DNA of 33,562 nucleotides from a virus (Duplodnaviria; Heunggongvirae; Uroviricota; Caudoviricetes): the IMG/VR virus record IMGVR_UViG_2850808358_000004, one strand, 5' to 3'. Made by a program: the position numbers and the translations under genes. The notes under the pieces are model-generated. The model was not told the origin of the DNA and searched no databases. It was given only the letters and a program-made list of their open reading frames with translations. The number at the start of each line of letters is the position of its first letter. Position 1 is the first letter of the stretch. This document shows positions 58 through 33,562 of the stretch, piece after piece.

Positions 58-83
58 AAAAGAAAAAAGGCCGCAGAGCGGCC
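58..83 (-). terminator. Rho-independent terminator-like hairpin (GGCCGC-AGA-GCGGCC at 69-83) followed on the minus strand by a T-rich run (complement of the A-run at 58-68)
   Basis: Perfect 6-bp inverted repeat with 3-nt loop directly read in sequence; T-tract lies 3' on the minus strand, immediately downstream of the leftward gene ending at 193. Confidence 0.45.
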
Positions 84-192: not shown

Positions 193-630
193 TCATCCAA
201 CAAATTTAGCAACAAATACAGCAACCGCCGCCGTGAAAATGGTTGTGCATACTGGCACAATAATGCCACTCCAACGCCACTTCGTATTATCATCAACCTT
301 GTCAAACCGCCGATTCATCTCATCCATAATCTTGTCAAAGCGTTTATCCATCGCTTCGGTAAGCTCACCCTTCAGGCTGTTAATGTCTGATTTGAGCTGC
401 TCTTTCAGGTGAGCTGTATCAGATTTAAGCTCACCTTTCAGATTCGCAATATCGCATTCAAGAGCACCTTTCAGATGTGCTATGTCTGCTTTGAGTTCAC
501 CTTTCACCTCACCAACATCGGCTTTAGTTGAGAGGTTTGTAGTGCGTTCAGCAAGCGTCGCAAGGTCGTTTCTTGTTAGCGATAAATCACCTTCGAGCCG
601 CTCAATTCGCCTTTCAAGTTTATCTGACAT
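193..630 (-). CDS. Coiled-coil protein with four to five 11-residue repeats and a C-terminal transmembrane helix (architecture resembles phage XhlA/DUF1640-type membrane-anchored coiled-coil proteins)
   Basis: ORF track 193..747; likely true start is the ATG at 630 (MSDKLERR...), preceded by GGAGG 5 nt upstream; hydrophobic C-terminus IIVPVCTTIFTAAVAVFVAKFV; repeat units ELKADIAHLKG / ALECDIANLKG / ELKSDTAHLKE / QLKSDINSLKG. Confidence 0.55.
   Translation of the reverse strand: MSDKLERRIERLEGDLSLTRNDLATLAERTTNLSTKADVGEVKGELKADIAHLKGALECDIANLKGELKSDTAHLKEQLKSDINSLKGELTEAMDKRFDKIMDEMNRRFDKVDDNTKWRWSGIIVPVCTTIFTAAVAVFVAKFVG
361..522. repeat. Tandem 33-bp repeats (about 5 copies) encoding the hendecad coiled-coil repeats of the 193..630 gene
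   Basis: Units read directly: tttgagctgctctttcaggtgagctgtatcaga / tttaagctcacctttcagattcgcaatatcgca / ttcaagagcacctttcagatgtgctatgtctgc / tttgagttcacctttcacctcaccaacatcggc, with a degenerate copy upstream. Confidence 0.7.
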
Positions 631-730
631 TCCGCCTCCACTACTGCCGCCATCGCCACCATGATAAAGCACATCACGCTCAGAATGCGACACACTACCT
701 GCTGAATTACCGAAAAGATTTCTTGCTACA

Positions 731-1231
731 TTACCCATTATCACCATCCTGCGCTTTGTCTTTCTCCAACCACTTCAGCACCGCAGACGTACGATAAAGG
801 CTCAGGTAACCACAATTCAGGCAATGCAGCGTGTAATAAGTTTTGCGCATATCAGGTATGCTCTTAACATCACCCAAAAAAGTATAAGATACATAATGCT
901 TTATGTTCTCTTTAATTAACTCACTCTGCTCCTCCAGGGGTAGGTTGTTAAAATTTTCTGGTTTCTTATTTTTATCCCAGCAAAGATCCATACTTTCAGG
1001 AACAGATAATCGCGACGATCCACATGAAGGGCAGACACTGGAGACCCCCTTCTCAGACAAGAAACGGAAGAAGATTTCTGGCGTAATCTCCATCAGCCGC
1101 TCTTTATGTTTTTTGACACGACTCATCGACTTCTTATTGATTTCATCAGCTTCTTCTTTGCATTTATCTTCTATATATTTCGATAGTAAATAGTCATATA
1201 ACTCTTTTTTTGTAGGTTTTTTTATTTCCAT
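731..1231 (-). CDS. Hypothetical protein with two CxxC pairs (CPSC ... CLNC; possible zinc ribbon), markedly AT-rich relative to neighbours
   Basis: 166-aa ORF, K/E-rich, start ATG 2 nt from the integrase stop; same strand as int and the coiled-coil gene; no recognisable catalytic motif. Confidence 0.5.
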   Translation of the reverse strand: MEIKKPTKKELYDYLLSKYIEDKCKEEADEINKKSMSRVKKHKERLMEITPEIFFRFLSEKGVSSVCPSCGSSRLSVPESMDLCWDKNKKPENFNNLPLEEQSELIKENIKHYVSYTFLGDVKSIPDMRKTYYTLHCLNCGYLSLYRTSAVLKWLEKDKAQDGDNG

Positions 1232-1233
1232 AG

Positions 1234-2210
1234 TTACATTCCTCCCAAGGGATTAAACCTCACCGCATCCTGCAAGTAATCCGGCGCAAGATGGGCATAA
1301 ATCATCGTTGTCTGAATCTTTGCGTGCCCCAGAATTTTCTGGAGCGTCAGAATATTGCCGCCGTTCATCATGAAATGACTGGCGAAGGTGTGGCGCAGCG
1401 CATGAACAGCCTGGCCGTCAGGAATATCAGGTGCGACCGTTTTGATAACATCACGAACCAGTGGATAATCCAGTGTTGGAAACACCAGCTTTCCGCCCCG
1501 TTTTTTGATCTTCTCAAACAGGCTTTCAGAGATAGGAACGGTACGGTTTTTACTGTTCTTTGTTTTTGAAAACGTGATTCGGCAATGAAGAACGCGACGC
1601 TGCTCCAGTGCCTCTACCTCGCCCATCGCGCCCCGGTCGACAGAAGGATTTCGACAGCCAGCCGTTCATCGGGATTTTCAGCCAGTGCATCCAGCAACTG
1701 AACACATTCAGACTTACTCAGATATCCCATTTCGCGCTCGTTAACCTTCATTCCTTTAAGGCCTTGAACGGGGTTATCGTTAAGAAAATGGCCGGATGAG
1801 ATGAGTGCGGTAAACATCGCGCTTAACGCCCCAATCTCTCGATTTATGGTGCTGGGTTGTATCCCCTGCTCTATCCTGTACACACGCAGCTCGGTGAGCA
1901 TCGTTGTATTAAGTTTATGCACGCACGGGTCATCCATTGCCTCACTCAAGCGCAGCAATTTAAGGTGCGTGTTATGCCCTGACCTCATTAACTGGCCGTG
2001 GTATTTCCACCACAAGTCAATAAGCACTGACAGCGGACGGCGATCAATGGAGTTTCCTTTCCACTCATTGTTATGCTGTTGCGCCAGCACCCACCGCTCA
2101 TATAAAACTGCATCCGATTTCGTTTTAAATTTTTTGCGAATGCGTTTGCCTTTACGCCCCTCAGGGCGCATGTCAAGAAGATACCCTCCCGGAATTGATT
2201 TTATGCTCAT
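1234..2210 (-). CDS. int: Tyrosine integrase (P2/186-type), interrupted by a single-base frameshift near 1615-1630 (possible pseudogene or sequencing indel)
   Basis: Two ORF-track pieces (1614..2210 N-terminal; 1234..1626 C-terminal) that together give about 325 aa; C-terminal piece carries HALRHTFASHFMMNGGNILTLQKILGH...MIYAHL typical of the tyrosine recombinase catalytic domain; frames join at ...STGARW / GEVEALEQ in a G-run. Confidence 0.85.
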
Positions 2211-5055: not shown

Positions 5056-5291
5056 AACCCGCCATTATCTGCATTCTGTGCGAGAGCACTGTCACCGGCG
5101 ACCATTACCGCATCAGGGAACGCCACATCAACCCTGACCGTTCGCTGCTGGACAACATCACCGGCCCGGATGATGAACGCGTGATCTGCCTGAACGACGG
5201 CTCGCAGTTACGCGTGCGCAATATCCGGCGCGAAATCACGCTCGAACCCACCCCATTCACACGCGGGAAAAAACCGGAGAGTGACGCATGA
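5052..5291 (+). CDS. Hypothetical early protein
   Basis: 79 aa, ATGA start-stop overlap with the ASCH gene and with dam. Confidence 0.45.
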   Translation: MKPAIICILCESTVTGDHYRIRERHINPDRSLLDNITGPDDERVICLNDGSQLRVRNIRREITLEPTPFTRGKKPESDA

Positions 5292-6250
5292 AAGGTATTC
5301 TGAACCAGCGCTCACCGCTCAAATGGGCGGGCGGCAAATTCAGTATCATGCCGCAGCTGCGCGAATATTTACCCAAAGCCGCCTGCCTGATCGAACCCTT
5401 CGTGGGCGGTGGCTCTGTCTTCATGAATACGGATTACGACCATTACGTATTGTGTGACAGCAACCCCGCGCTGATTAATTTCTACCAGCAACTGACGACC
5501 AACACCATGGAATTAATGGATCGTGCATGGTCACTCTTTAAGGATGGTGGCACACCGGAAGCCTACAAACGCCATCGCGGGGCATTTAACACCATCGCGC
5601 TGGCCACCGACAGATTACGCGGCGAATCCCTGGAATGGGCAGCGCTGTTTCTGTACCTGAACCGCTATTGCTTTAACGGCCTGCACCGCACCAACCAAAA
5701 AGGCGAATTCAATGTGCCATTCGGCAAACACCGCACACCTTATTTCCCCGATCAGGAAATGCGCCTGTTTGCTGATAAAGCCCGCGAGACACGAACCCGC
5801 TTTATTCACGCGGATTTCCGTACAGCCTTCACAATGCCGGCTGAGATCCGCCGTTTTTCTTCAGTGCACGGCGGTATCGCCATTTACTGCGATCCGCCCT
5901 ACCTGCCGCCGGACGGTAAAGAGGCATTCACTCACTACAACGGCCGGGCATTCACCCGTAAAGACCACCGTGACCTTGCGGCGCTCATGATGAACGCCTG
6001 GCAGCGTTACGGTATCCGCCCGGTGGTCTCCAACAGTGACACCACCGAAACCCGGCAAATCTATTCCTCGTTTGAGCTGCACACCCTGAGCGTTCGCCGC
6101 TCTGTTGCTGCCAGCAGCAGCGCACGCCAGCAGGCAAAAGAGGTAATTGGTGTTTATCCGCCAGCCCATAAAAGCCAGCTCCGGGACGTCAATGTGGGCT
6201 GGCCGTCTCCCCTTCACGCTCCACACCCCACCACGGAGATCATGCAATGA
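5288..6250 (+). CDS. dam: DNA adenine methyltransferase (Dam family N6-adenine MTase)
   Basis: N-terminal KWAGGK SAM-binding motif and DPPY catalytic motif read in translation; 320 aa. Confidence 0.9.
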   Translation: MKGILNQRSPLKWAGGKFSIMPQLREYLPKAACLIEPFVGGGSVFMNTDYDHYVLCDSNPALINFYQQLTTNTMELMDRAWSLFKDGGTPEAYKRHRGAFNTIALATDRLRGESLEWAALFLYLNRYCFNGLHRTNQKGEFNVPFGKHRTPYFPDQEMRLFADKARETRTRFIHADFRTAFTMPAEIRRFSSVHGGIAIYCDPPYLPPDGKEAFTHYNGRAFTRKDHRDLAALMMNAWQRYGIRPVVSNSDTTETRQIYSSFELHTLSVRRSVAASSSARQQAKEVIGVYPPAHKSQLRDVNVGWPSPLHAPHPTTEIMQ

Positions 6251-7726: not shown

Positions 7727-8116
7727 ATGATTGACCGTCATGACTTCGTAAAATGGGTGCGCACACAGGACACCCGTCTGGCTCCAAAACTTCAGGCAAT
7801 GTTTGATTTCTATCTCCGTGCCCGCGCCAGCCAGGCTCGCACCACAAAACCAGAGAACGCAGGCCCCCTTTATTTCATCGTGGACGACTGTTACCGCGTG
7901 GACTTCACACCACACGGTCTGGCCCTGTACACCCTGACACCACACGGCGACTCCCTGCTGGCGTATTACAACTCCCCTGCCTCCGTGTTTGCAGCAATGC
8001 TGGCGCATCGCACCGCTGGCGGGTGTGCCTCGCTGAGTGAATACACCACTGAGTTTAACCGTCTTTCTGCCCTCTTCTCGCAGGAATGGCAACGCGTGAC
8101 AGGGTGTCAACCATGA
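7727..8116 (+). CDS. Hypothetical protein immediately upstream of the replication gene
   Basis: 129 aa, GAGGTG RBS, stop overlaps the gpA start. Confidence 0.5.
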   Translation: MIDRHDFVKWVRTQDTRLAPKLQAMFDFYLRARASQARTTKPENAGPLYFIVDDCYRVDFTPHGLALYTLTPHGDSLLAYYNSPASVFAAMLAHRTAGGCASLSEYTTEFNRLSALFSQEWQRVTGCQP

Positions 8117-10605
8117 GTGAATTTACCTGGGACTGGAACGAACCACGGCAGGCCATTGACCCAGCCACATTTGCGAAGTATCAGCCTACGCCTGAAACCC
8201 CGTTGCAACAGGCCATACGCTACTACCAGGAAGCAGATCTGAAAGCACAGGAAGTCAGGGAGGCGGAAGAAGAAGCCTTTTTTGTGCAGTCAGACATGGG
8301 TAAAAAACTCATGGTCGCCCTCGATGAGGACGAACGGCGCGAGAAGGTAACACAAAGCATCATCAGCAAGCGCCAGGCAACAGAACAAGACCCGGTGGCC
8401 CGTGCATTTGTCACACTAAAGGCGCTACCTGTTTATCTGCGTGAACCTCTGAGCCGCCGCCTCTCTTTTTTACGTAAGAAGCAGGAATCTGACCGCCAGA
8501 AAGGCAAAAAGAGTCGACCATCAGAGGGCTACGCGCGCGGAACCCTGCGCAAAATATTCGAACGACTGGACCGCACCGACAGCCGCTGGCTGACACCGGG
8601 TTATCGCGCCCTTGCCGGACGCGAACGCCTGGACGATTTGCTGTACCTGCCGCAGCTTAACAAGCACCAGATACAGACGCTGGGCACCATGACGGCGGCA
8701 ATGTTCAGCAGCTCCTTTGAAACACTCTGTGATGGTTTCGGTGCCAGAGATGGCGAGCTGACCATGGAGGTGGCACTGAAGGCGTATCAGATGCTGGCCC
8801 GCATGGCGCTACACCTGCACGCCATGCCTCCACATTATGACGCGCTGACAACAGACAAAGACCGCAAGAACGAACCGGACACGGAACTGCTGCCGGGCGC
8901 AATCCTTCGCCTGACCTGTGCGGACTGGTGGAAACGCAAACTGTGGCTGTTACGTTGCGAGTGGAGAGAAGAACAACTCCGCGCCGCCTGTCTGGTTTCC
9001 AGAAAAACATCGCCCTATCTGAGCCAGGACGCGTTAAGTGAGTTTCGCGCACAGCGCGAGAAAACACGCGATTTCCTGAAAAGTTTCATGCTGGAAAATG
9101 AAGACGGGTTCACGATTGATCTCGAGACAGTGTATTACGCGGGAGTAAGTAACCCGGTTCACCGTAAGGCAGAAATGATGGCCACCATGAAAGGGGCGGA
9201 ACTTATAGCCGAATCCCGTGGCGACAAAGCGGTGTTTCTGACTGTCACCTGCCCGTCAAAATACCACGCAACAACGGAGAACGGTCATCCGAACCCCAAA
9301 TGGAACGGGGCTACCATGCGCGATTCCAGTGATTATCTGGTTAACACTTTTTTTAAAGCCGTTCGTAACAGACTGGACCGCAAGGGCCTGCGCTGGTATG
9401 GCATCCGCACGGTGGAGCCTCACCATGACGGCACGGTGCACTGGCATATGATGGTCTTTGCACATCCTGAAGAAATCGACAGCATCGTGACCATCGCCCG
9501 CGATATTGCCATTCGTGAAGACCGCCACGAGCTGGGCGATGACATAACTCCGCGCTTTAAGGCGGAGTACGTCGACGGTTCGAAAGGTACGCCGACCAGC
9601 TATATCGCCACCTACATCGGAAAGAACCTGGACAGCCACGCCGTGGATGGCATTGACCCGAAAACAGGCAAACCGCGCATCGACGACGAATCAGGAAAGA
9701 CGATGGCAGAAAGCGTGGAACGCGCCATCGGCTGGGCGCGCCTTCACCGGGTCCGCCAGTTCCAGTTCTTTGGCATCCCCTCCCGTCAGGTATGGCGTGA
9801 ACTGCGCCGCCTTGCCAGCCAGATGGCACGCAACCCGGAAGGCCCGCAACGGCTGAAGGATGACGCAATGGATGCGGTTCTTGCTGCCGCTGATGCCGGG
9901 TGTTTTGCCACCTACATAGAGAAACAGGGCGGCGTACTTGTTCCACGTAAGGACTACCTGATTCGCACCGCCTACGACCTCGCAGATGAGCTGAACGATT
10001 ACGGCGAACAGAGCGTACAGATTTACGGGATCTGGTCGCCACTCATCGGGGAATCCTCCCGTGTGTGCACGCATCCGGACAACTGGAAGCTGGTAAGACG
10101 TAAACCGGAAGCGGAAGACAGCGCCCGCGAAAATGGTTTTGACCTTCAGGGCGGCCCTGCCGCCCCTTGGACTCGTGGCAATAACTGTCCCGGTGACGAA
10201 AAAACAGCCGGAACCGGCACAGAAAACAGGCAGCGTGGGTCGCGGCTGACGCTTCCGGAAAGCGGCCTGGCGCACTGGTTGCAGACGTTAACCCGTCACG
10301 AGCGGAAACAGCTCATCAGACAGCTTAAAAATCAGCCGCCCACCACGGATACCGGACAAAATAACACCAGACCAGCATCAGACACCCCTGTCAGGGTGGA
10401 GGTTGTCGTGCCTGTCGACACCACGACCATCGCACAAATCACCCGCGAACTCGACGCGCTGGGTGTGCAGCTGCCTGACGCAGCCATTATTTCCGTGAGT
10501 AACGGTGCCCGCGTTCGCCCGGGCGACGGGCGTATCGCGTACTGGAGCGCCACAACCCGCCGTATCGTCATCACACAGGAGTCGTCAGCGGAGGTAAGAT
10601 CATGA
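8113..10605 (+). CDS. Replication initiation endonuclease, P2 gpA family (rolling-circle HUH initiator)
   Basis: HUH-type motif HHDGTVHWHMMVF and paired tyrosines in TSYIATYIGKN; start taken at ATG 8113 (ATGA overlap with upstream stop) rather than 8086 from the ORF track. Confidence 0.9.
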   Translation: MSEFTWDWNEPRQAIDPATFAKYQPTPETPLQQAIRYYQEADLKAQEVREAEEEAFFVQSDMGKKLMVALDEDERREKVTQSIISKRQATEQDPVARAFVTLKALPVYLREPLSRRLSFLRKKQESDRQKGKKSRPSEGYARGTLRKIFERLDRTDSRWLTPGYRALAGRERLDDLLYLPQLNKHQIQTLGTMTAAMFSSSFETLCDGFGARDGELTMEVALKAYQMLARMALHLHAMPPHYDALTTDKDRKNEPDTELLPGAILRLTCADWWKRKLWLLRCEWREEQLRAACLVSRKTSPYLSQDALSEFRAQREKTRDFLKSFMLENEDGFTIDLETVYYAGVSNPVHRKAEMMATMKGAELIAESRGDKAVFLTVTCPSKYHATTENGHPNPKWNGATMRDSSDYLVNTFFKAVRNRLDRKGLRWYGIRTVEPHHDGTVHWHMMVFAHPEEIDSIVTIARDIAIREDRHELGDDITPRFKAEYVDGSKGTPTSYIATYIGKNLDSHAVDGIDPKTGKPRIDDESGKTMAESVERAIGWARLHRVRQFQFFGIPSRQVWRELRRLASQMARNPEGPQRLKDDAMDAVLAAADAGCFATYIEKQGGVLVPRKDYLIRTAYDLADELNDYGEQSVQIYGIWSPLIGESSRVCTHPDNWKLVRRKPEAEDSARENGFDLQGGPAAPWTRGNNCPGDEKTAGTGTENRQRGSRLTLPESGLAHWLQTLTRHERKQLIRQLKNQPPTTDTGQNNTRPASDTPVRVEVVVPVDTTTIAQITRELDALGVQLPDAAIISVSNGARVRPGDGRIAYWSATTRRIVITQESSAEVRS

Positions 10606-30277: not shown

Positions 30278-30806
30278 TGGTCAGATAATCCCGCTAAAAC
30301 GCTTAAGTGTCAGCGTGAAGCTGACCATCAAAGACAAAGACGCTTCCGGAAAATCCTCATCAACAGCGACTTCAGAACAGGGTGTAAAAGCCAAGGAGCT
30401 GCAGATTTCCGGACTGATTCCGTTCACCCAGCCGGAAGCACTCACACGCTTATTTCGTCTGGCTGAAGCCAGAGCCGCTAACGGTGCACAACAGGTTTAC
30501 CGCATCGCCAACATGGATGCCAAAGCGGTCAATATGAAGCAAGGGATTTTTTCCGGTGCCGTGGGCGCAACTCCTGAAACAGGCCTGATGGCATGGAAAG
30601 TTGACTTCACTCTGAAAGAAAAACTCAGCAGTGCCGAAAAGGCGACAGGACGCGGCCCGGCTGGCAGCCAGAGTGCTGAACAGCACGCACAGGCCGTCAA
30701 ATCAGGTGGCAAAGGCGAAAAAAACGAAGAGCATGGCTGGTTCTGGAAAATGTCAGACAAACTCAATAACTGGATAGGCCCGGCAGGCAATGAAACCAAT
30801 TCGTGA
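30240..30806 (+). CDS. Hypothetical tail-associated protein
   Basis: 188 aa; overlaps the upstream gene by 38 nt and the downstream hub gene by 17 nt. Confidence 0.45.
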   Translation: MSQNTTTPLLALNGQIIPLKRLSVSVKLTIKDKDASGKSSSTATSEQGVKAKELQISGLIPFTQPEALTRLFRLAEARAANGAQQVYRIANMDAKAVNMKQGIFSGAVGATPETGLMAWKVDFTLKEKLSSAEKATGRGPAGSQSAEQHAQAVKSGGKGEKNEEHGWFWKMSDKLNNWIGPAGNETNS

Positions 30807-32478
30807 TCTCTGCATTAACGGCAGGCGTTATCCTGTCGTGGAAGAAAACATCATGTTGCGTCTCAACGGCGCGGGAACCGGCTTTATCACCATTAACGCC
30901 GCCGACAATACTCCCCCGCTACGCGGCAAACCCGTAGAGCTGTCCATCGGTTACAATGATCAGCCTGTAAAGTGGTTTTCGGGATATGTGGAAAGTGACA
31001 GTTGTACAGGCAGAGGGCTGCACAAGCTGATGGTGCGCGAAGCTGCTGCTATTCTGCAATACCCGCTCAACATCTCCATGCAGCATCCGACGCTGAAACA
31101 GGTCGCAGGACACATTGAAGGCAATACAGGTTTACGCATACAACTCCCGAAGGCAGGCTACACCACCACTCCGGTCCCTCATCTGACCCACAATGGCAAC
31201 GGTTATCAGCTGATGGCCATGCTTGGCCGCATATTCAGTATCCCGGATTACGTCTGGTATCCGTCGGTTGACGGCATCATCTACGCCGGAAGCTTTGCTG
31301 ACTGCCGTTTTGCAAAACGCCCTGCCAGATTGCCGGTCGATATCACCAGAGGTGATCACGGAGCAAATGGCTGGACAATACAGACGATTCCCATGATGCG
31401 CCCCGGCGTGGTCATGAACGATCACCGTATAAATCAGGTACAGCTACAGGGCGACAGCATGATCATTAGCTGGAGTGATGGCCGTCAGTCGCCAGTACAA
31501 CGCCAGATCGAAACCCTTTACCCCGAGATAGGCAACAAAACCCACCTTCCACGCATGGGACGCGTGATCTCACCAACTGAAAACACAACCCAGGGGGATT
31601 TGCATGATGAATTTCGCCCACGCTACGCCGTCAATGTGCAGTTGCTCGACGAGAACGGCACCCCCGATAAGAACACACCGGTATATAACGCCGTCCCCGT
31701 TCCTGTGCCAATGGCCGGCAATGAATCCGGGATATTCCAGTACCCGCCCCCAGGAACCATAGTTACACTGGCCCACGTTGACGGCAGGCCGGATAAACCC
31801 ATCATCACCGGCACTCACGCCAGCGGCCAGAGTCTGCCGGGAATAAAGCCCGGCGAACAACTACAACAGCAACGCGCAGAGGTATTCCAGCGTGTGCATA
31901 CAGATGGCACATGGCAGCGTGAAACCGATCAGGTTATTCGTGAGAAATCCACCGACCGCATCATCCAGAACACAACGGAAACGCGCACCAGTACCACTCG
32001 TAATATTACCGTAAAGGCCAACAACACCATAACGGTGCTCGGCACTCATAAGCTGATGAGCGGCCACATACAGCACATCGCAGACGGTGACTATGCCGTA
32101 GCCGCCACGAAGAAACTGATAAAGCACGCCGACAGCGCTGAACTCGACGTTACTCACCAGTGGCAAACCAGCACAGAAAGCACCACCCACAATGTGGCGA
32201 AAACGCTGGAAGAAAAGATTGGCCGGATTAAAAAATCCGTCGCTGGCCAGATGCAACAGATCATCGCCCCGCAGGTCTGGTTTGGCAGCAATACCATCAA
32301 CACACTTAACCTCATGCTGGATCTTTGCGACACCGTTCAGCAACTGGCGCAGCTCACCGCACAACACACTCATACCAACAACGGGTCGTCACAGCCCACC
32401 AACAGCGGCAGCATAGACACGGTGGCATCAATGGCAGGCAACCTGAAAGCGAAGTACAGTACCGTGATTAAGCAGTAA
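30790..32478 (+). CDS. Putative baseplate hub plus central spike fusion (gpD-like N-terminus, gpV-like OB-fold region; VgrG-like architecture)
   Basis: 562 aa; internal region NAVPVPVPMAGNESGIFQYPPPGTIVTLAHVDGRPDKPIITG resembles baseplate spike (gpV) OB-fold segments; last large gene of the tail cluster. Confidence 0.45.
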   Translation: MKPIRDLCINGRRYPVVEENIMLRLNGAGTGFITINAADNTPPLRGKPVELSIGYNDQPVKWFSGYVESDSCTGRGLHKLMVREAAAILQYPLNISMQHPTLKQVAGHIEGNTGLRIQLPKAGYTTTPVPHLTHNGNGYQLMAMLGRIFSIPDYVWYPSVDGIIYAGSFADCRFAKRPARLPVDITRGDHGANGWTIQTIPMMRPGVVMNDHRINQVQLQGDSMIISWSDGRQSPVQRQIETLYPEIGNKTHLPRMGRVISPTENTTQGDLHDEFRPRYAVNVQLLDENGTPDKNTPVYNAVPVPVPMAGNESGIFQYPPPGTIVTLAHVDGRPDKPIITGTHASGQSLPGIKPGEQLQQQRAEVFQRVHTDGTWQRETDQVIREKSTDRIIQNTTETRTSTTRNITVKANNTITVLGTHKLMSGHIQHIADGDYAVAATKKLIKHADSAELDVTHQWQTSTESTTHNVAKTLEEKIGRIKKSVAGQMQQIIAPQVWFGSNTINTLNLMLDLCDTVQQLAQLTAQHTHTNNGSSQPTNSGSIDTVASMAGNLKAKYSTVIKQ

Positions 32479-33418
32479 GTTTACAGATGAGAAGAGGTGC
32501 ACAGGCAGCCCGGTTTACCACTCAAGAATCATGCCACAAAATACAGACAAATAAGCCTTTCGTGAAATTATTCATATATCAATAAATTTCATTCATCGAA
32601 CCAGACGAAAGCCCGTCGCGACGGGCATTCCCCAGAAAAACACCCCCCACCAGACGCGCTGTATCGCATTCTGCGACATGCTTTAAGCAAATAAACGCGC
32701 GAGTCCCCCTGAATTCAGCTCGTAACGCCTGAAAGCGTACACGCACGCTACGTGGATATTTCACGGCATGATGAGCCCAACACACGGCACGGGCGCAAGC
32801 CCCCCGCGCTTGCACTCTTTACGATAAAAATTTTTTGCCAAATAAATTTGCGCAAAACGACACTCCAGATCGCGCCAGCACTGGCGCTTTACAAAAAAGC
32901 CATCTGGCACAAAGTGTCAAAGATTGCCAGGCTTTGCCAGATTAACGTTAAAAAAGGATCTGACAGAAAAATTAACCATATGAAAAACAAAACTATTTTT
33001 TGCTTTCGTCATTTTAAAGGATCTGAATGCCGCCAAAGTGCCACGCACAGGAACCACTTAACGCAATGAAATAAAAGGTAAAAACAAAACATTGGACAAG
33101 GATCGTTTTGGCGCAGCGTTACACAGTTTCACTGTGTAACTATTTTCAGGCGCAAGCAAAAACCGCTCACGAAAGCAGCGACAAAAGCGGCAAAATTTTA
33201 ACTTTCGCGGAGAACCGAACGGGTGACGTGAAACTTTACGTAGCAGAGAAGCGGGAAATCAGTAGAATAATCGCGGGTGCCTTTCGGCTGACGGCTGGAA
33301 GGTTAACCTGAAGGCCGGATGTGGAAAGGCCCCGGAAAACATTTTTGTTTAACCGAGGCCCTAACCGTCTAACCAGCAATTGATAGGTTAGCGCCTCTCC
33401 ACTCAGGAGGCAAGCGCC

Positions 33419-33562
33419 ATGTCGCAAAAATCGCTAATCGCCATCACCACACTGTGCGTGACGGCAATCCTCATCATCTGGATGTTGCAGGGTTCGCTCT
33501 GCGAGATACGGATGAGTTTCTGGGGAGCGGAGTTTGCGGCGTTCTTACAATGTAGACAGTAA
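33419..33562 (+). CDS. Hok/Gef-family type I toxin (small membrane peptide)
   Basis: 47 aa MSQKSLIAITTLCVTAILIIWMLQGSLCEIRMSFWGAEFAAFLQCRQ: N-terminal TM helix followed by the family-typical SLCEIR ... EFAAFL segment, closest in pattern to HokA; AGGAGG RBS 8 nt upstream. Confidence 0.7.
   Translation: MSQKSLIAITTLCVTAILIIWMLQGSLCEIRMSFWGAEFAAFLQCRQ

What the first reader, a model, noticed from the sequence alone, without database searches (positions are those of the whole stretch)
32479..33562. Hok-family type I toxin at the window edge, preceded by about 0.9 kb of AT-rich non-coding DNA
The 47-aa peptide has the Hok/Gef signature, so a hok/sok-type toxin-antitoxin locus is expected, with an antisense Sok RNA and overlapping mok frame in the leader (roughly 33150-33420). 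The long ORF-poor region also likely contains the prophage right boundary. I could not place sok, mok or attR from sequence alone.
Basis: partly seen in the sequence, partly recalled or inferred. Interest (0 to 1): 0.5.

Follow-up and report, generated by a model that had tools for sequence, protein, structure and literature searches.

The report
Prophage-end hok/sok toxin–antitoxin without mok
The last gene of this P2-like prophage is an ordinary Hok-family membrane toxin held in check by an antisense Sok RNA; it lacks the usual mok leader frame, and the prophage's right end lies beyond the window, not in the conserved non-coding DNA upstream.

Summary
Window 33419-33562 (+) encodes a 47-aa Hok/Gef peptide (Pfam 29.3 bits, cut-off 22; PHROG 251, 76 bits). 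About 940 bp without credible genes precede it.

It belongs to a roughly 0.4-kb hok/sok cassette, of which the window holds the first 300 bp (33263-33562):
- hok -10 box at 33263-33268, mRNA start near 33275
- tac at 33275-33288 and ucb at 33315-33330
- antisense Sok at about 33377-33319, with its own promoter (-35 at 33413-33408, -10 at 33390-33385)
- the 3' fbi partner of tac about 60-74 nt past the window end, seen only in relatives; covariation supports the pairing

Two expectations fail:
- There is no canonical mok. Five reference loci have an ATG 57-60 nt upstream of hok. None of 16 modules of this subfamily has one there, and 11, including the window, have no start-initiated frame reaching the hok ribosome-binding site.
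- The right boundary is not in the ORF-poor DNA. The attL core is at 59-83, and its only other copy lies 268 bp past the hok stop in a 99.5%-identical prophage.

The 784-bp spacer (32479-33262) is non-coding yet conserved and unexplained. This cassette type occurs in 1,666 of 5,426 E. coli genomes. Low interest.

The parts
59..83 (.). attL core of the prophage, AAAGAAAAAAGGCCGCAGAGCGGCC (a copy of the greA terminator)
   Evidence: It is 25/25 identical to L012 6412-6436, where K-12 homology resumes. It occurs once in the window, even allowing 3 mismatches.
30790..32478 (+). Last late gene, a 562-aa baseplate/spike protein
   Evidence: PHROG 2258 'baseplate protein', 653 bits. Weak Phage_base_V and VgrG hits.
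32479..33262 (.). Conserved non-coding spacer of unknown function
   Evidence: It is found in 6 of 5,426 E. coli genomes at 98.7% identity. It is 82% identical to L023, with no indel over 32713-33262, while the spike gene is 78.7% identical with third codon positions near 58%. Substitutions fall 44/44/43 over the three phases and are clustered, p<0.0002.
32611..32626 (-). Terminator-like hairpin GCCCGTCGCGACGGGC followed by TTTCGTCT on the - strand
   Evidence: Found by the terminator scan. In L023 the stem is kept and the loop changed. The 120-nt - strand window 32559-32678 containing it folds with z -3.1.
32954..33104 (+). Three same-strand AAGGATC (GATC-containing) repeats at 32954, 33017 and 33098
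   Evidence: These are the only three copies in the 33.5-kb window on either strand. All three are conserved in L023.
33226..33241 (.). Palindrome ACGTGAAACTTTACGT, centred 41.5 bp upstream of the predicted hok mRNA start
   Evidence: It is conserved in L023 and also in L021 and L022, whose spacers are otherwise unalignable. L022 has perfect 9-bp arms.
33263..33268 (+). hok promoter -10 box (TAGAAT), which is also the left edge of the exchangeable hok cassette
   Evidence: It aligns with the -10 boxes of hokC and hokB. Similarity to all other phage and plasmid modules starts here.
33275..33418 (+). hok mRNA leader: tac 33275-33288, ucb 33315-33330, Sok target 33319-33377, anti-SD/SD hairpin 33391-33417, SD GGAGG 33406-33410
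   Evidence: Rfam RF01794 hits 33275-33429 at 48.9 bits, E 1.6e-9. tac/ucb forms standard pairs in 94.7% of sequence-by-pair cells (13 of them compensatory), and 0/500 shuffles reach this. MFE folds of the full-length and truncated RNA show the expected switch.
33319..33372 (+). 17-codon upstream ORF (ATG ... TAA) in the -1 frame; not a canonical mok
   Evidence: It stops 47 nt before the hok ATG. The same ATG opens an 80-codon frame in L007, L010 and L014 but is absent in L021-L023.
33319..33377 (-). Predicted Sok antisense RNA, about 59 nt: a 16-nt variable 5' tail plus a long hairpin and UUUCC
   Evidence: Coordinates were transferred from the annotated K-12 sokB and sokC through the alignment. 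It folds at -23.7 kcal/mol, z -3.1. The hairpin is kept in 11 variants, with 3 pairs changed on both sides.
33385..33413 (-). sok promoter: -35 TTGCCT (33413-33408), 17-bp spacer, -10 TAACCT (33390-33385)
   Evidence: It aligns column for column with the R1-type TTGCGC-17-TATCCT. The -10 is TAACCT in 14 of 16 modules and TATCCT in 2. The consensus scan missed it.
33419..33562 (+). hok toxin gene (47 aa)
   Evidence: Pfam, NCBIfam and PHROG hits. The identical peptide is encoded at the ends of prophages at several integration sites. dN/dS against 15 relatives is 0.1-0.4 wherever sequences differ enough to judge.

Best explanation
[quoted passage not shown] It is the last gene module of a P2-like prophage integrated at the greA terminator.

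Shown in silico:
- A weak promoter (-10 at 33263-33268) would give a hok mRNA starting near 33275.
- The 5' end of that mRNA (tac) pairs with a 3' element (fbi) that begins about 60 nt past the window end, which would lock the full-length RNA.
- In a fold of the RNA lacking its last 40 nt, tac pairs instead with ucb (33315-33330).
- A roughly 59-nt antisense Sok RNA (33377-33319, - strand) with its own promoter is complementary to the leader.

Inferred from the plasmid R1 paradigm:
- The stable hok mRNA outlives the unstable Sok.
- When the prophage is lost, or transcription stops, Hok is made and depolarises the inner membrane. This stabilises the prophage, aborts an infection, or helps lysis.

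Difference from R1: this phage-borne subfamily has no canonical mok. Sok most likely acts directly, by triggering duplex cleavage and by occupying the segment 33355-33366. That segment can otherwise pair with the anti-SD strand and free the hok ribosome-binding site. This step is inferred from folds only.

The 784-bp spacer upstream is conserved non-coding DNA inside the prophage. The attR boundary lies about 270 bp beyond the window.
For: Family and conservation:
- Pfam 29.3 bits against a cut-off of 22; PHROG 251 at 76 bits; both cysteines kept.
- dN/dS is 0.1-0.4 against the diverged relatives (L019 onwards), and all 16 modules are intact.

Leader and RNA structure:
- The leader matches Rfam RF01794 with E 1.6e-9.
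- tac/fbi: 12 pairs, 100% of sequence-by-pair cells form standard pairs, 18 compensatory cells, 0/500 shuffles as good, and slid controls at 29-47%.
- tac/ucb: 94.7% paired with 13 compensatory cells.
- MFE folds reproduce the full-length versus truncated switch.

Sok:
- Placed by alignment to the annotated sokB and sokC. It folds as a 5' tail plus hairpin, z -3.1.
- Its promoter aligns with the R1-type sok promoter.

mok:
- An ATG lies at -57 to -60 in R1-like, hokA, hokB, hokC and a neighbouring Hok type. It is absent in all 16 modules of this subfamily, and 11 of 16 have no start-initiated frame reaching the hok SD.

Boundary:
- The identical Hok peptide is the last phage gene next to serS, greA and flk/DUF4875, and a close variant sits next to leuZ.
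- The att core is at 59-83 and, in L012, 268 bp after the hok stop.
Against: - No expression data exist. The Sok ends and both promoters are placed by homology, and the generic promoter scan found neither.
- The Rfam score is below the gathering threshold (48.9 against 59).
- fbi, the terminator and attR are seen only in relatives (L012 at 99.5%, L001 at 98%), not in the window's own source.
- In R1, mok translation up to the hok SD is mandatory (PMC9841398), so a locus without mok could be translationally silent.
- The direct-Sok mechanism rests on folds. The key helix 33355-33366 with 33386-33398 is conserved but shows no pair with changes on both sides.
Confidence: 0.8

Rival explanations
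1. It is a canonical three-gene hok/mok/sok locus. On this view a Mok-equivalent leader peptide exists: either the 17-codon ORF starting at ATG 33319, or a near-cognate start such as ATT 33379 in the open -1 frame. Its translation would be needed to open the hok ribosome-binding site, and Sok would act by blocking it.
For: - The -1 frame is open from 33373 to 33555, overlapping nearly all of hok.
- ATG 33319 has a GAAGG Shine-Dalgarno-like sequence upstream and lies under the 3' end of the predicted Sok.
- In L007, L010 and L014 this ATG opens an 80-codon frame across hok.
- mok translation is mandatory in R1 (PMC9841398).
Against: - The ATG is 46-50 nt upstream of the canonical mok start position.
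- It is missing in L021-L023.
- Its frame is stopped well before the hok SD in the window and in the L012, P88, L001/L017, L019, L003 and Stx2-phage modules (L003 carries the window's own TAA).
- No start codon is conserved in any frame across the 16 modules.
Confidence: 0.12
2. It is a decaying, non-functional hok relic, like several K-12 chromosomal hok loci. It is carried passively at the prophage end.
For: - No canonical mok is present.
- Relative to the L007-type leader, the window has a stop in the long -1 frame.
- Chromosomal hokA, hokB and hokC did not mediate post-segregational killing in earlier work, as cited in bioRxiv 10.1101/2025.08.07.668861.
- The integrase of this prophage is split into two ORFs.
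Against: - Wherever the hok CDS differs enough from the window's to judge, dN/dS is 0.1-0.4, and all 16 ORFs are intact.
- tac/fbi and tac/ucb are maintained by compensatory changes.
- The Sok hairpin and promoter are kept.
- The identical peptide is present in 148 blocks of the public assembly collection and at several integration sites.
- 42 of 45 diverse Hok peptides tested were toxic (same bioRxiv paper).
Confidence: 0.08
3. The 784-bp spacer is neutral filler, or holds the prophage boundary. Its similarity to L023 would reflect recent recombination rather than function.
For: - P2-like phage genomes are mosaic.
- The hok cassette next to the spacer is clearly exchanged: the spacer is 98.7% identical to L001, but the cassette about 87%.
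- No RNA family, promoter or ORF was found in the spacer.
- The most conserved part has no excess RNA structure.
Against: Against a boundary:
- The att core has no copy in the spacer.
- hok lies inside the prophage at every site seen.

Against neutrality:
- No indel occurs in 550 nt at 15% divergence.
- Substitutions are significantly clustered, with an index of dispersion of 2.04 against 0.79.
- The three AAGGATC repeats and the palindrome centred at -41.5 are conserved, and the palindrome also sits next to unrelated spacers.
Confidence: 0.25

Closest known systems
hok/mok/sok of plasmid R1 (parB), the paradigm type I toxin-antitoxin system
   Same: - A small Hok/Gef membrane toxin.
- A leader of about 145 nt.
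- A 5' tac element paired to a 3' fbi, with an alternative tac/ucb pairing.
- An antisense Sok with a single-stranded 5' tail, a hairpin, and a promoter overlapping the hok translation-initiation region.
   Different: - Hok is 47 aa rather than 52, and belongs to a different subfamily.
- There is no mok ATG at -57, and no start-initiated frame reads into the hok SD.
- The locus sits at a prophage end, not on a plasmid.
- The Rfam sok model scores below its gathering threshold.
Chromosomal hokA/sokA of E. coli (NCBIfam NF007290)
   Same: - It is the best-scoring named family.
- The peptides are 38% identical, sharing the W-M...SLCE...AAFL.C pattern and both cysteines.
- The sok -10 box TAACCT is the same.
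   Different: - The score of 34 bits is far below the equivalog cut-off of 89.
- Intact hokA (O55:H7) has a canonical mok ATG 60 nt upstream and in frame with hokA.
- hokA has a fixed chromosomal site next to cspA.
hokW/sokW of Stx2 prophage Sp5 (Takada et al. 2021, PMC8621323)
   Same: It is a prophage-borne hok/sok locus. sokW was shown to neutralise HokW, and the locus aids phage release after mitomycin C. This is a plausible role here too.
   Different: - HokW is 51 aa, starts MKQQKAM, and has a HokC-like leader (GGGTGCTTGAGGCTATCTGCC), according to the paper's primers.
- The window's type is a separate subfamily. Stx2 phages carry it as a second locus at 83% identity.
- The label 'MokW-like host killing' on PHROG 251 and on RefSeq phage genes is only a family name.
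Unstudied hok genes of P88-like Xuanwuvirus phages (P88 gp52, P88_4B11 gp32) and of E. coli plasmids
   Same: They carry the same cassette at 85-87% identity, from the -10 box to fbi. In the phages it occupies the same position after the tail genes, next to att.
   Different: In those phages ogr or a short gap precedes hok. Here a 784-bp conserved non-coding spacer does. None of these loci has been studied experimentally, as far as the searched literature shows.

Membership tests
Hok/Gef toxin family (Pfam PF01848) | Profile score at or above the curated gathering threshold | tested here: met
   29.3 bits against 22, E 6.5e-7, residues 7-45. PHROG 251 at 76.2 bits over the full length.
Hok/Gef toxin family (Pfam PF01848) | Peptide of about 50 aa with an N-terminal hydrophobic helix and a C-terminal part carrying the conserved cysteine pair 17 residues apart | tested here: met
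   47 aa with a hydrophobic stretch at residues 6-23 and cysteines C28 and C45. It aligns with HokA. The role of the cysteines is from bioRxiv 10.1101/2025.08.07.668861.
Hok/Gef toxin family (Pfam PF01848) | Kills or arrests the cell when expressed | not testable with these tools
   Indirect only: dN/dS of 0.1-0.4 across relatives.
HokA equivalog (NCBIfam NF007290) | Score at or above the equivalog cut-off of 89 bits | tested here: not met
   34.1 bits and 38% identity to K-12 HokA.
[quoted passage not shown] | Antisense Sok gene inside the hok leader, with its own promoter and terminator hairpin | tested here: met
   In silico only. Placed at 33377-33319 (-) by alignment to the annotated sokB and sokC. 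The promoter is TTGCCT-17-TAACCT. The hairpin is conserved, z -3.1. Expression was not tested.
[quoted passage not shown] | Long-range tac/fbi pairing of the mRNA 5' and 3' ends | tested here: met
   12 pairs with 100% of cells paired and 18 compensatory cells, 0/500 shuffles as good. The tac half is in the window. The fbi half is seen only in relatives, about 60-74 nt past the window end.
[quoted passage not shown] | Alternative tac/ucb pairing in the 3'-truncated mRNA | tested here: met
   It is predicted in the MFE fold of the truncated RNA. 94.7% of cells are paired, with 13 compensatory cells.
[quoted passage not shown] | mok reading frame starting about 57 nt upstream of hok and translated through the hok SD | tested here: not met
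   The window has no ATG, GTG or TTG frame reaching the SD, and neither do 10 of the 15 relatives. All five reference loci have the ATG at -57 to -60.
[quoted passage not shown] | Rfam RF01794 (sok / hok leader) gathering score | tested here: inconclusive
   48.9 bits against a gathering score of 59, with E 1.6e-9 and the full model length matched.
[quoted passage not shown] | Stable toxin mRNA, unstable antitoxin RNA, and RNase III cleavage of the duplex | not testable with these tools
   Needs rifampicin chase Northern blots.
hokW/sokW subfamily (Sp5) | HokW-type peptide (51 aa, MKQQKAM...) and HokC-like leader | tested here: not met
   The primer sequences in PMC8621323 differ from the window's MSQKSL... 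peptide and GGGTGCCTTTCGG leader.

The most novel reading that the evidence does not exclude
This widespread phage-borne Hok subfamily (MSQKS... peptides, PHROG 251) may be a mok-independent variant of hok/sok. In this reading, Sok controls the hok ribosome-binding site directly through competing RNA helices. hok transcription may also be regulated rather than constitutive, through the conserved palindrome centred at -41.5. That palindrome lies at the end of a constrained 0.78-kb non-coding element carrying three GATC-containing repeats, in a phage that encodes its own Dam-like methylase. Toxin release would then be tied to the prophage's state, for example induction or loss.
Probability: 0.2. 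Interest if true: 0.55.

Novelty: new member of a known kind. Interest (0 to 1): 0.28.

Why it matters
As found, this matters little. hok loci are known to be enriched in prophages and to form tandem islets (bioRxiv 10.1101/2025.08.07.668861). This cassette type is in about 30% of complete E. coli genomes, and RefSeq already labels it Hok/Gef.

Two points could be useful to specialists:
- A large natural Hok subfamily lacks the Mok leader frame that is mandatory in the R1 paradigm. It is a ready-made test of whether mok coupling is general.
- The cassette behaves as an exchangeable unit, bounded exactly by its -10 box and its fbi element. That explains its spread among P2-like phages, Stx phages and plasmids.

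The conserved non-coding spacer is a small open question about P2-like prophage ends.

Tried and rejected
Boundary and identity:
- attR in the spacer: rejected. The att core is single-copy in the window, at 59-83, and its second copy lies after hok in L012.
- Identity with hokW/sokW: rejected from the paper's primer sequences, despite the 'MokW-like' labels.

Coding or known RNA in the spacer:
- Protein coding: rejected. A 94-118-codon open frame exists in both the window and L023, but substitutions are spread 11/12/8 over codon phases there and 44/44/43 overall, and the start codon is not conserved.
- Known RNA family: none at E<=1.
- Structured RNA: inconclusive. The - strand alifold has a better covariation term than the + strand (-7.7 against +3.1). 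However, only two lineages are available, the - strand is G+U-rich, and the most conserved part has z>=0.

Promoters and binding sites:
- The sigma-70 consensus scan found nothing in 32400-33562.
- Inspection by eye for sigma-54, Ogr (TGT-N12-ACA), CRP, FNR, DnaA and IHF sites gave no convincing conserved match.

Searches for more spacer homologues:
- Genome contigs, both a DNA pattern and the spike protein: none.
- Metagenome contigs, both the spike protein and a DNA pattern: none.
- Viral contigs gave only L017-L023 and L024-L028, which are the same contigs.
- No sequenced phage matches the prophage beyond its tail fibre genes.

Literature:
- A search for 'mok-less' hok loci returned nothing relevant. 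The novelty of that point is therefore unverified.

Full report
**1. The observation**

The window ends with a 47-aa ORF at 33419-33562 (+): MSQKSLIAITTLCVTAILIIWMLQGSLCEIRMSFWGAEFAAFLQCRQ.
- It passes the Pfam HOK_GEF gathering threshold (29.3 against 22 bits).
- It matches PHROG 251 over its full length (76 bits).
- Its best NCBIfam match is HokA, far below that model's cut-off (34 against 89 bits).
- It is 38% identical to K-12 HokA and keeps both cysteines.

Upstream, 940 bp separate it from the stop of a 562-aa baseplate/spike gene (30790-32478; PHROG 2258). These 940 bp contain only short ORFs.

'AT-rich' is only partly right. GC is 46.8% against 52.3% for the window. One stretch (32600-32800) is 57% GC, and a core (32800-33130) is 36-41% GC.

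**2. Extent and spread of the hok cassette**

Similarity to other hok loci begins sharply at 33263 and runs to the window end.
- Identity is 85-91% to P88-like Xuanwuvirus phages, Stx2 phages, plasmids and other prophages.
- In all, 1,666 of 5,426 complete E. coli genomes carry a match.
- The exact peptide is recorded in 148 blocks of the public assembly collection.

The left edge is the hok -10 box (TAGAAT, 33263-33268). The mRNA start, aligned to R1, hokB and hokC, is at 33275 (GGGUGCC). The right edge, seen in relatives, lies just after the fbi element.

The cassette is therefore an exchangeable unit. The spacer next to it is 98.7% identical to E. coli CFSAN029787 (L001), but the cassette is only about 87% identical.

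**3. Leader elements**

The Rfam 'sok' model (RF01794) runs on the hok strand from the mRNA 5' end to the hok AUG. It matches 33275-33429 over its full length with E 1.6e-9, but below its gathering score (48.9 against 59).

I aligned 16 distinct modules of this subfamily from +1 to fbi (alignment A2). Because the window ends at the hok stop, its row was completed with the 3' tail of L012, which is 99.5% identical.

RNAalifold recovers the 5'-3' tac/fbi helix.
- Seven pairs are invariant (GGGUGCC with GGCACCC).
- Four of the five further pairs are changed on both sides in up to 5 of the 16 sequences.
- Across the sequence-by-pair cells, 100% form standard pairs and 18 are compensatory. In control (a), 0 of 500 shuffles reach this. 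Slid controls give 29-47% paired.

The tac half is window 33275-33288. The fbi half (14 nt, ending GGCACCC) lies about 60-74 nt past the window end, at L012 6205-6218.

Single-sequence folds reproduce the classical switch. The full-length RNA pairs tac with fbi. An RNA lacking the last 40 nt pairs tac with ucb (33315-33330).

The tac/ucb helix is also supported by covariation: 94.7% of cells paired, 13 compensatory cells, and 0/500 shuffles as good.

**4. Sok**

I transferred the annotated coordinates of K-12 sokC and sokB through the alignment. This places Sok on the - strand from about 33377 (5' end) to about 33319.

The promoter aligns column for column with the R1-type TTGCGC-17-TATCCT.
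- The -35 box is TTGCCT (33413-33408), overlapping the hok SD GGAGG (33406-33410).
- A 17-bp spacer follows.
- The -10 box is TAACCT (33390-33385), 7-8 nt before the predicted start.
- The -10 is TAACCT in 14 of the 16 modules and TATCCT in the other 2.
- Because the -10 is weak by consensus, the generic scan missed it.

The predicted RNA folds as a 16-nt 5' tail plus a long hairpin followed by UUUCC (-23.7 kcal/mol, z -3.1). The hairpin is kept in 11 variants, and three pairs are changed on both sides. The 5' tail differs between variants, as expected for cognate-specific recognition.

**5. mok**

Five reference loci have an ATG 57-60 nt upstream of the hok ATG that opens a frame through the hok SD. 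They are an R1-like plasmid locus, hokB, hokC, intact hokA from O55:H7, and a different Hok type next door in L023.

At the aligned position the window reads CCCTAACCGTCTAACC, with no ATG.
- None of the 16 modules of this subfamily has a start codon at that aligned position.
- Of the 16 modules, 11 have no ATG, GTG or TTG frame reaching the hok SD. These include the window.
- Three use a non-homologous ATG at -103, one a GTG at -100, and one a GTG at -28.
- In the window the -103 ATG (33319) opens only a 17-codon ORF, stopped by TAA at 33370-33372. The same frame is then open across hok but has no start.

A canonical mok therefore cannot be placed, because it is not there. In R1, mok translation up to the hok SD is mandatory (PMC9841398). 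This subfamily must either bypass that requirement or be poorly translated.

The toxin gene is nonetheless maintained. Wherever the sequences differ enough to judge, dN/dS is 0.1-0.4, and all 16 ORFs are intact.

A possible direct mechanism follows from the folds.
- In the full-length fold the SD sits in a hairpin with the anti-SD strand GCGCCUCUCC (33391-33400).
- In the truncated fold the 5' half of that strand pairs instead with GAGGCCCUAAC (33355-33366). That segment lies inside the Sok target.
- Sok binding would therefore return the anti-SD strand to the SD.

This is inference only. The helix is conserved but shows no pair with changes on both sides.

**6. Prophage boundary**

The window is a P2-like prophage. 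Its content is:
- an integrase at 1234-2210 (-), split into two ORFs
- an HTH repressor at 2259-2570
- a Dam-like methylase at 5288-6250
- a gpA replication protein at 8086-10605
- portal and terminase genes on the - strand
- late genes on the + strand

The identical Hok peptide is the last phage gene next to serS, greA and flk/DUF4875. A close variant sits next to leuZ. Host genes follow 200-350 bp later.

In L012, K-12 homology resumes 271 bp after the hok stop, at the greA terminator. The 25-bp sequence there, AAAGAAAAAAGGCCGCAGAGCGGCC, is identical to window 59-83. It occurs nowhere else in the window, even allowing three mismatches.

So 59-83 is attL. attR is expected about 268 bp beyond the window end. 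The ORF-poor region does not contain the boundary.

**7. The 784-bp spacer (32479-33262)**

The spacer is rare. It occurs in 6 of 5,426 E. coli genomes at 98.7% identity, in a few IMG/VR prophages, and in one diverged relative, L023, at 82%.

Several results argue that it is non-coding.
- RefSeq annotates nothing there.
- Substitutions against L023 fall 44/44/43 over the three phases. In the adjacent spike gene they fall 68/57/234.
- The one long frame shared by both sequences lacks a conserved start.

Several results argue that it is nevertheless constrained.
- It is 82% identical to L023, while third codon positions next door are about 58% identical.
- There is no indel across 550 nt.
- Substitutions are clustered, with an index of dispersion of 2.04 against 0.79 in permutations, p<0.0002.

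Its notable features are:
- a - strand terminator-like hairpin at 32611-32626, whose stem is kept and loop changed in L023
- three same-strand AAGGATC repeats at 32954, 33017 and 33098, the only copies in the whole window and all conserved in L023
- a palindrome, ACGTGAAACTTTACGT (33226-33241), centred 41.5 bp upstream of the predicted hok start, where the -35 is poor

The palindrome also ends the otherwise unrelated spacers of L021 and L022.

The most conserved part has no excess RNA structure on either strand, and no Rfam family matches. I could not assign a function. A cis-acting DNA element seems more likely than a structured RNA. Recent mosaic exchange is not excluded.

**8. Comparison and verdict**

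The locus works like R1 hok/sok and carries its RNA hallmarks: tac/fbi, tac/ucb and an antisense Sok. It fails the mok criterion. It is neither HokA nor HokW, which is 51 aa and HokC-like according to the primers in PMC8621323.

Hok enrichment in prophages and tandem hok islets are already described (bioRxiv 10.1101/2025.08.07.668861). Relatives L022 and L023 show such islets. RefSeq already labels this gene Hok/Gef.

It is a new member of a known kind and of low interest. Two modest open points remain: the missing mok and the conserved spacer.

Noticed in passing
window 59-83: attL core of the prophage, AAAGAAAAAAGGCCGCAGAGCGGCC, a copy of the greA terminator. The window therefore spans attL to the hok stop and misses roughly the last 290 bp of the prophage (to the end of the attR core). 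The 58 bp left of the core do not match the K-12 yhbY-greA spacer.
   Followed up: partly
window 1234-2210 (-): The integrase is split into two overlapping ORFs: 1614-2210 (Pfam Int_N) and 1234-1626 (C-terminal catalytic part, PHROG integrase). This is either a frameshifted pseudogene, which would leave the prophage locked in, or a sequencing error.
   Followed up: no
window 193-1231 (-): Two cargo ORFs lie between attL and the integrase. One is a 184-aa coiled-coil protein with a C-terminal hydrophobic segment (phrog_9415). The other is a 166-aa protein (phrog_4293). Both have unknown function.
   Followed up: no
window 5288-6250 (+): The phage encodes a D12-class (Dam-like) N6-adenine DNA methyltransferase. 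This may be relevant to the conserved GATC-containing repeats in the spacer. GATC is mildly under-represented in the window (93 observed, 128 expected).
   Followed up: partly
L022 5937-7375; L023 5437-6640: Related prophages carry tandem hok islets at the same end. L022 has three modules of this subfamily. L023 has a different Hok type with a canonical mok, then this type, then a truncated third copy. The junctions fall at the -10/+1 sequence and after the terminator.
   Followed up: partly
L001 about 9850-9930 (E. coli CFSAN029787, next to leuZ): A degenerate hok remnant (leader-like TTTGTTTAACAGAGGTCC ... CTATGCGAAATACGG) lies between the intact prophage hok and tRNA-Leu. It suggests an earlier integration at the same site.
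   Followed up: no
window 12000-32478: No sequenced phage in the INPHARED collection matches this prophage at the DNA level, except for the tail fibre and assembly genes (P2 H/G-like, about 83%). It combines P2-type replication and packaging genes with an HP1_ORF34-type baseplate module.
   Followed up: partly
L010 versus L007 (both next to serS): The identical hok cassette and downstream att arm occur behind two different tail modules, P2 gpD + Ogr and HP1_ORF34 + spike. The hok-att segment therefore appears to move as a unit among P2-like phages.
   Followed up: no
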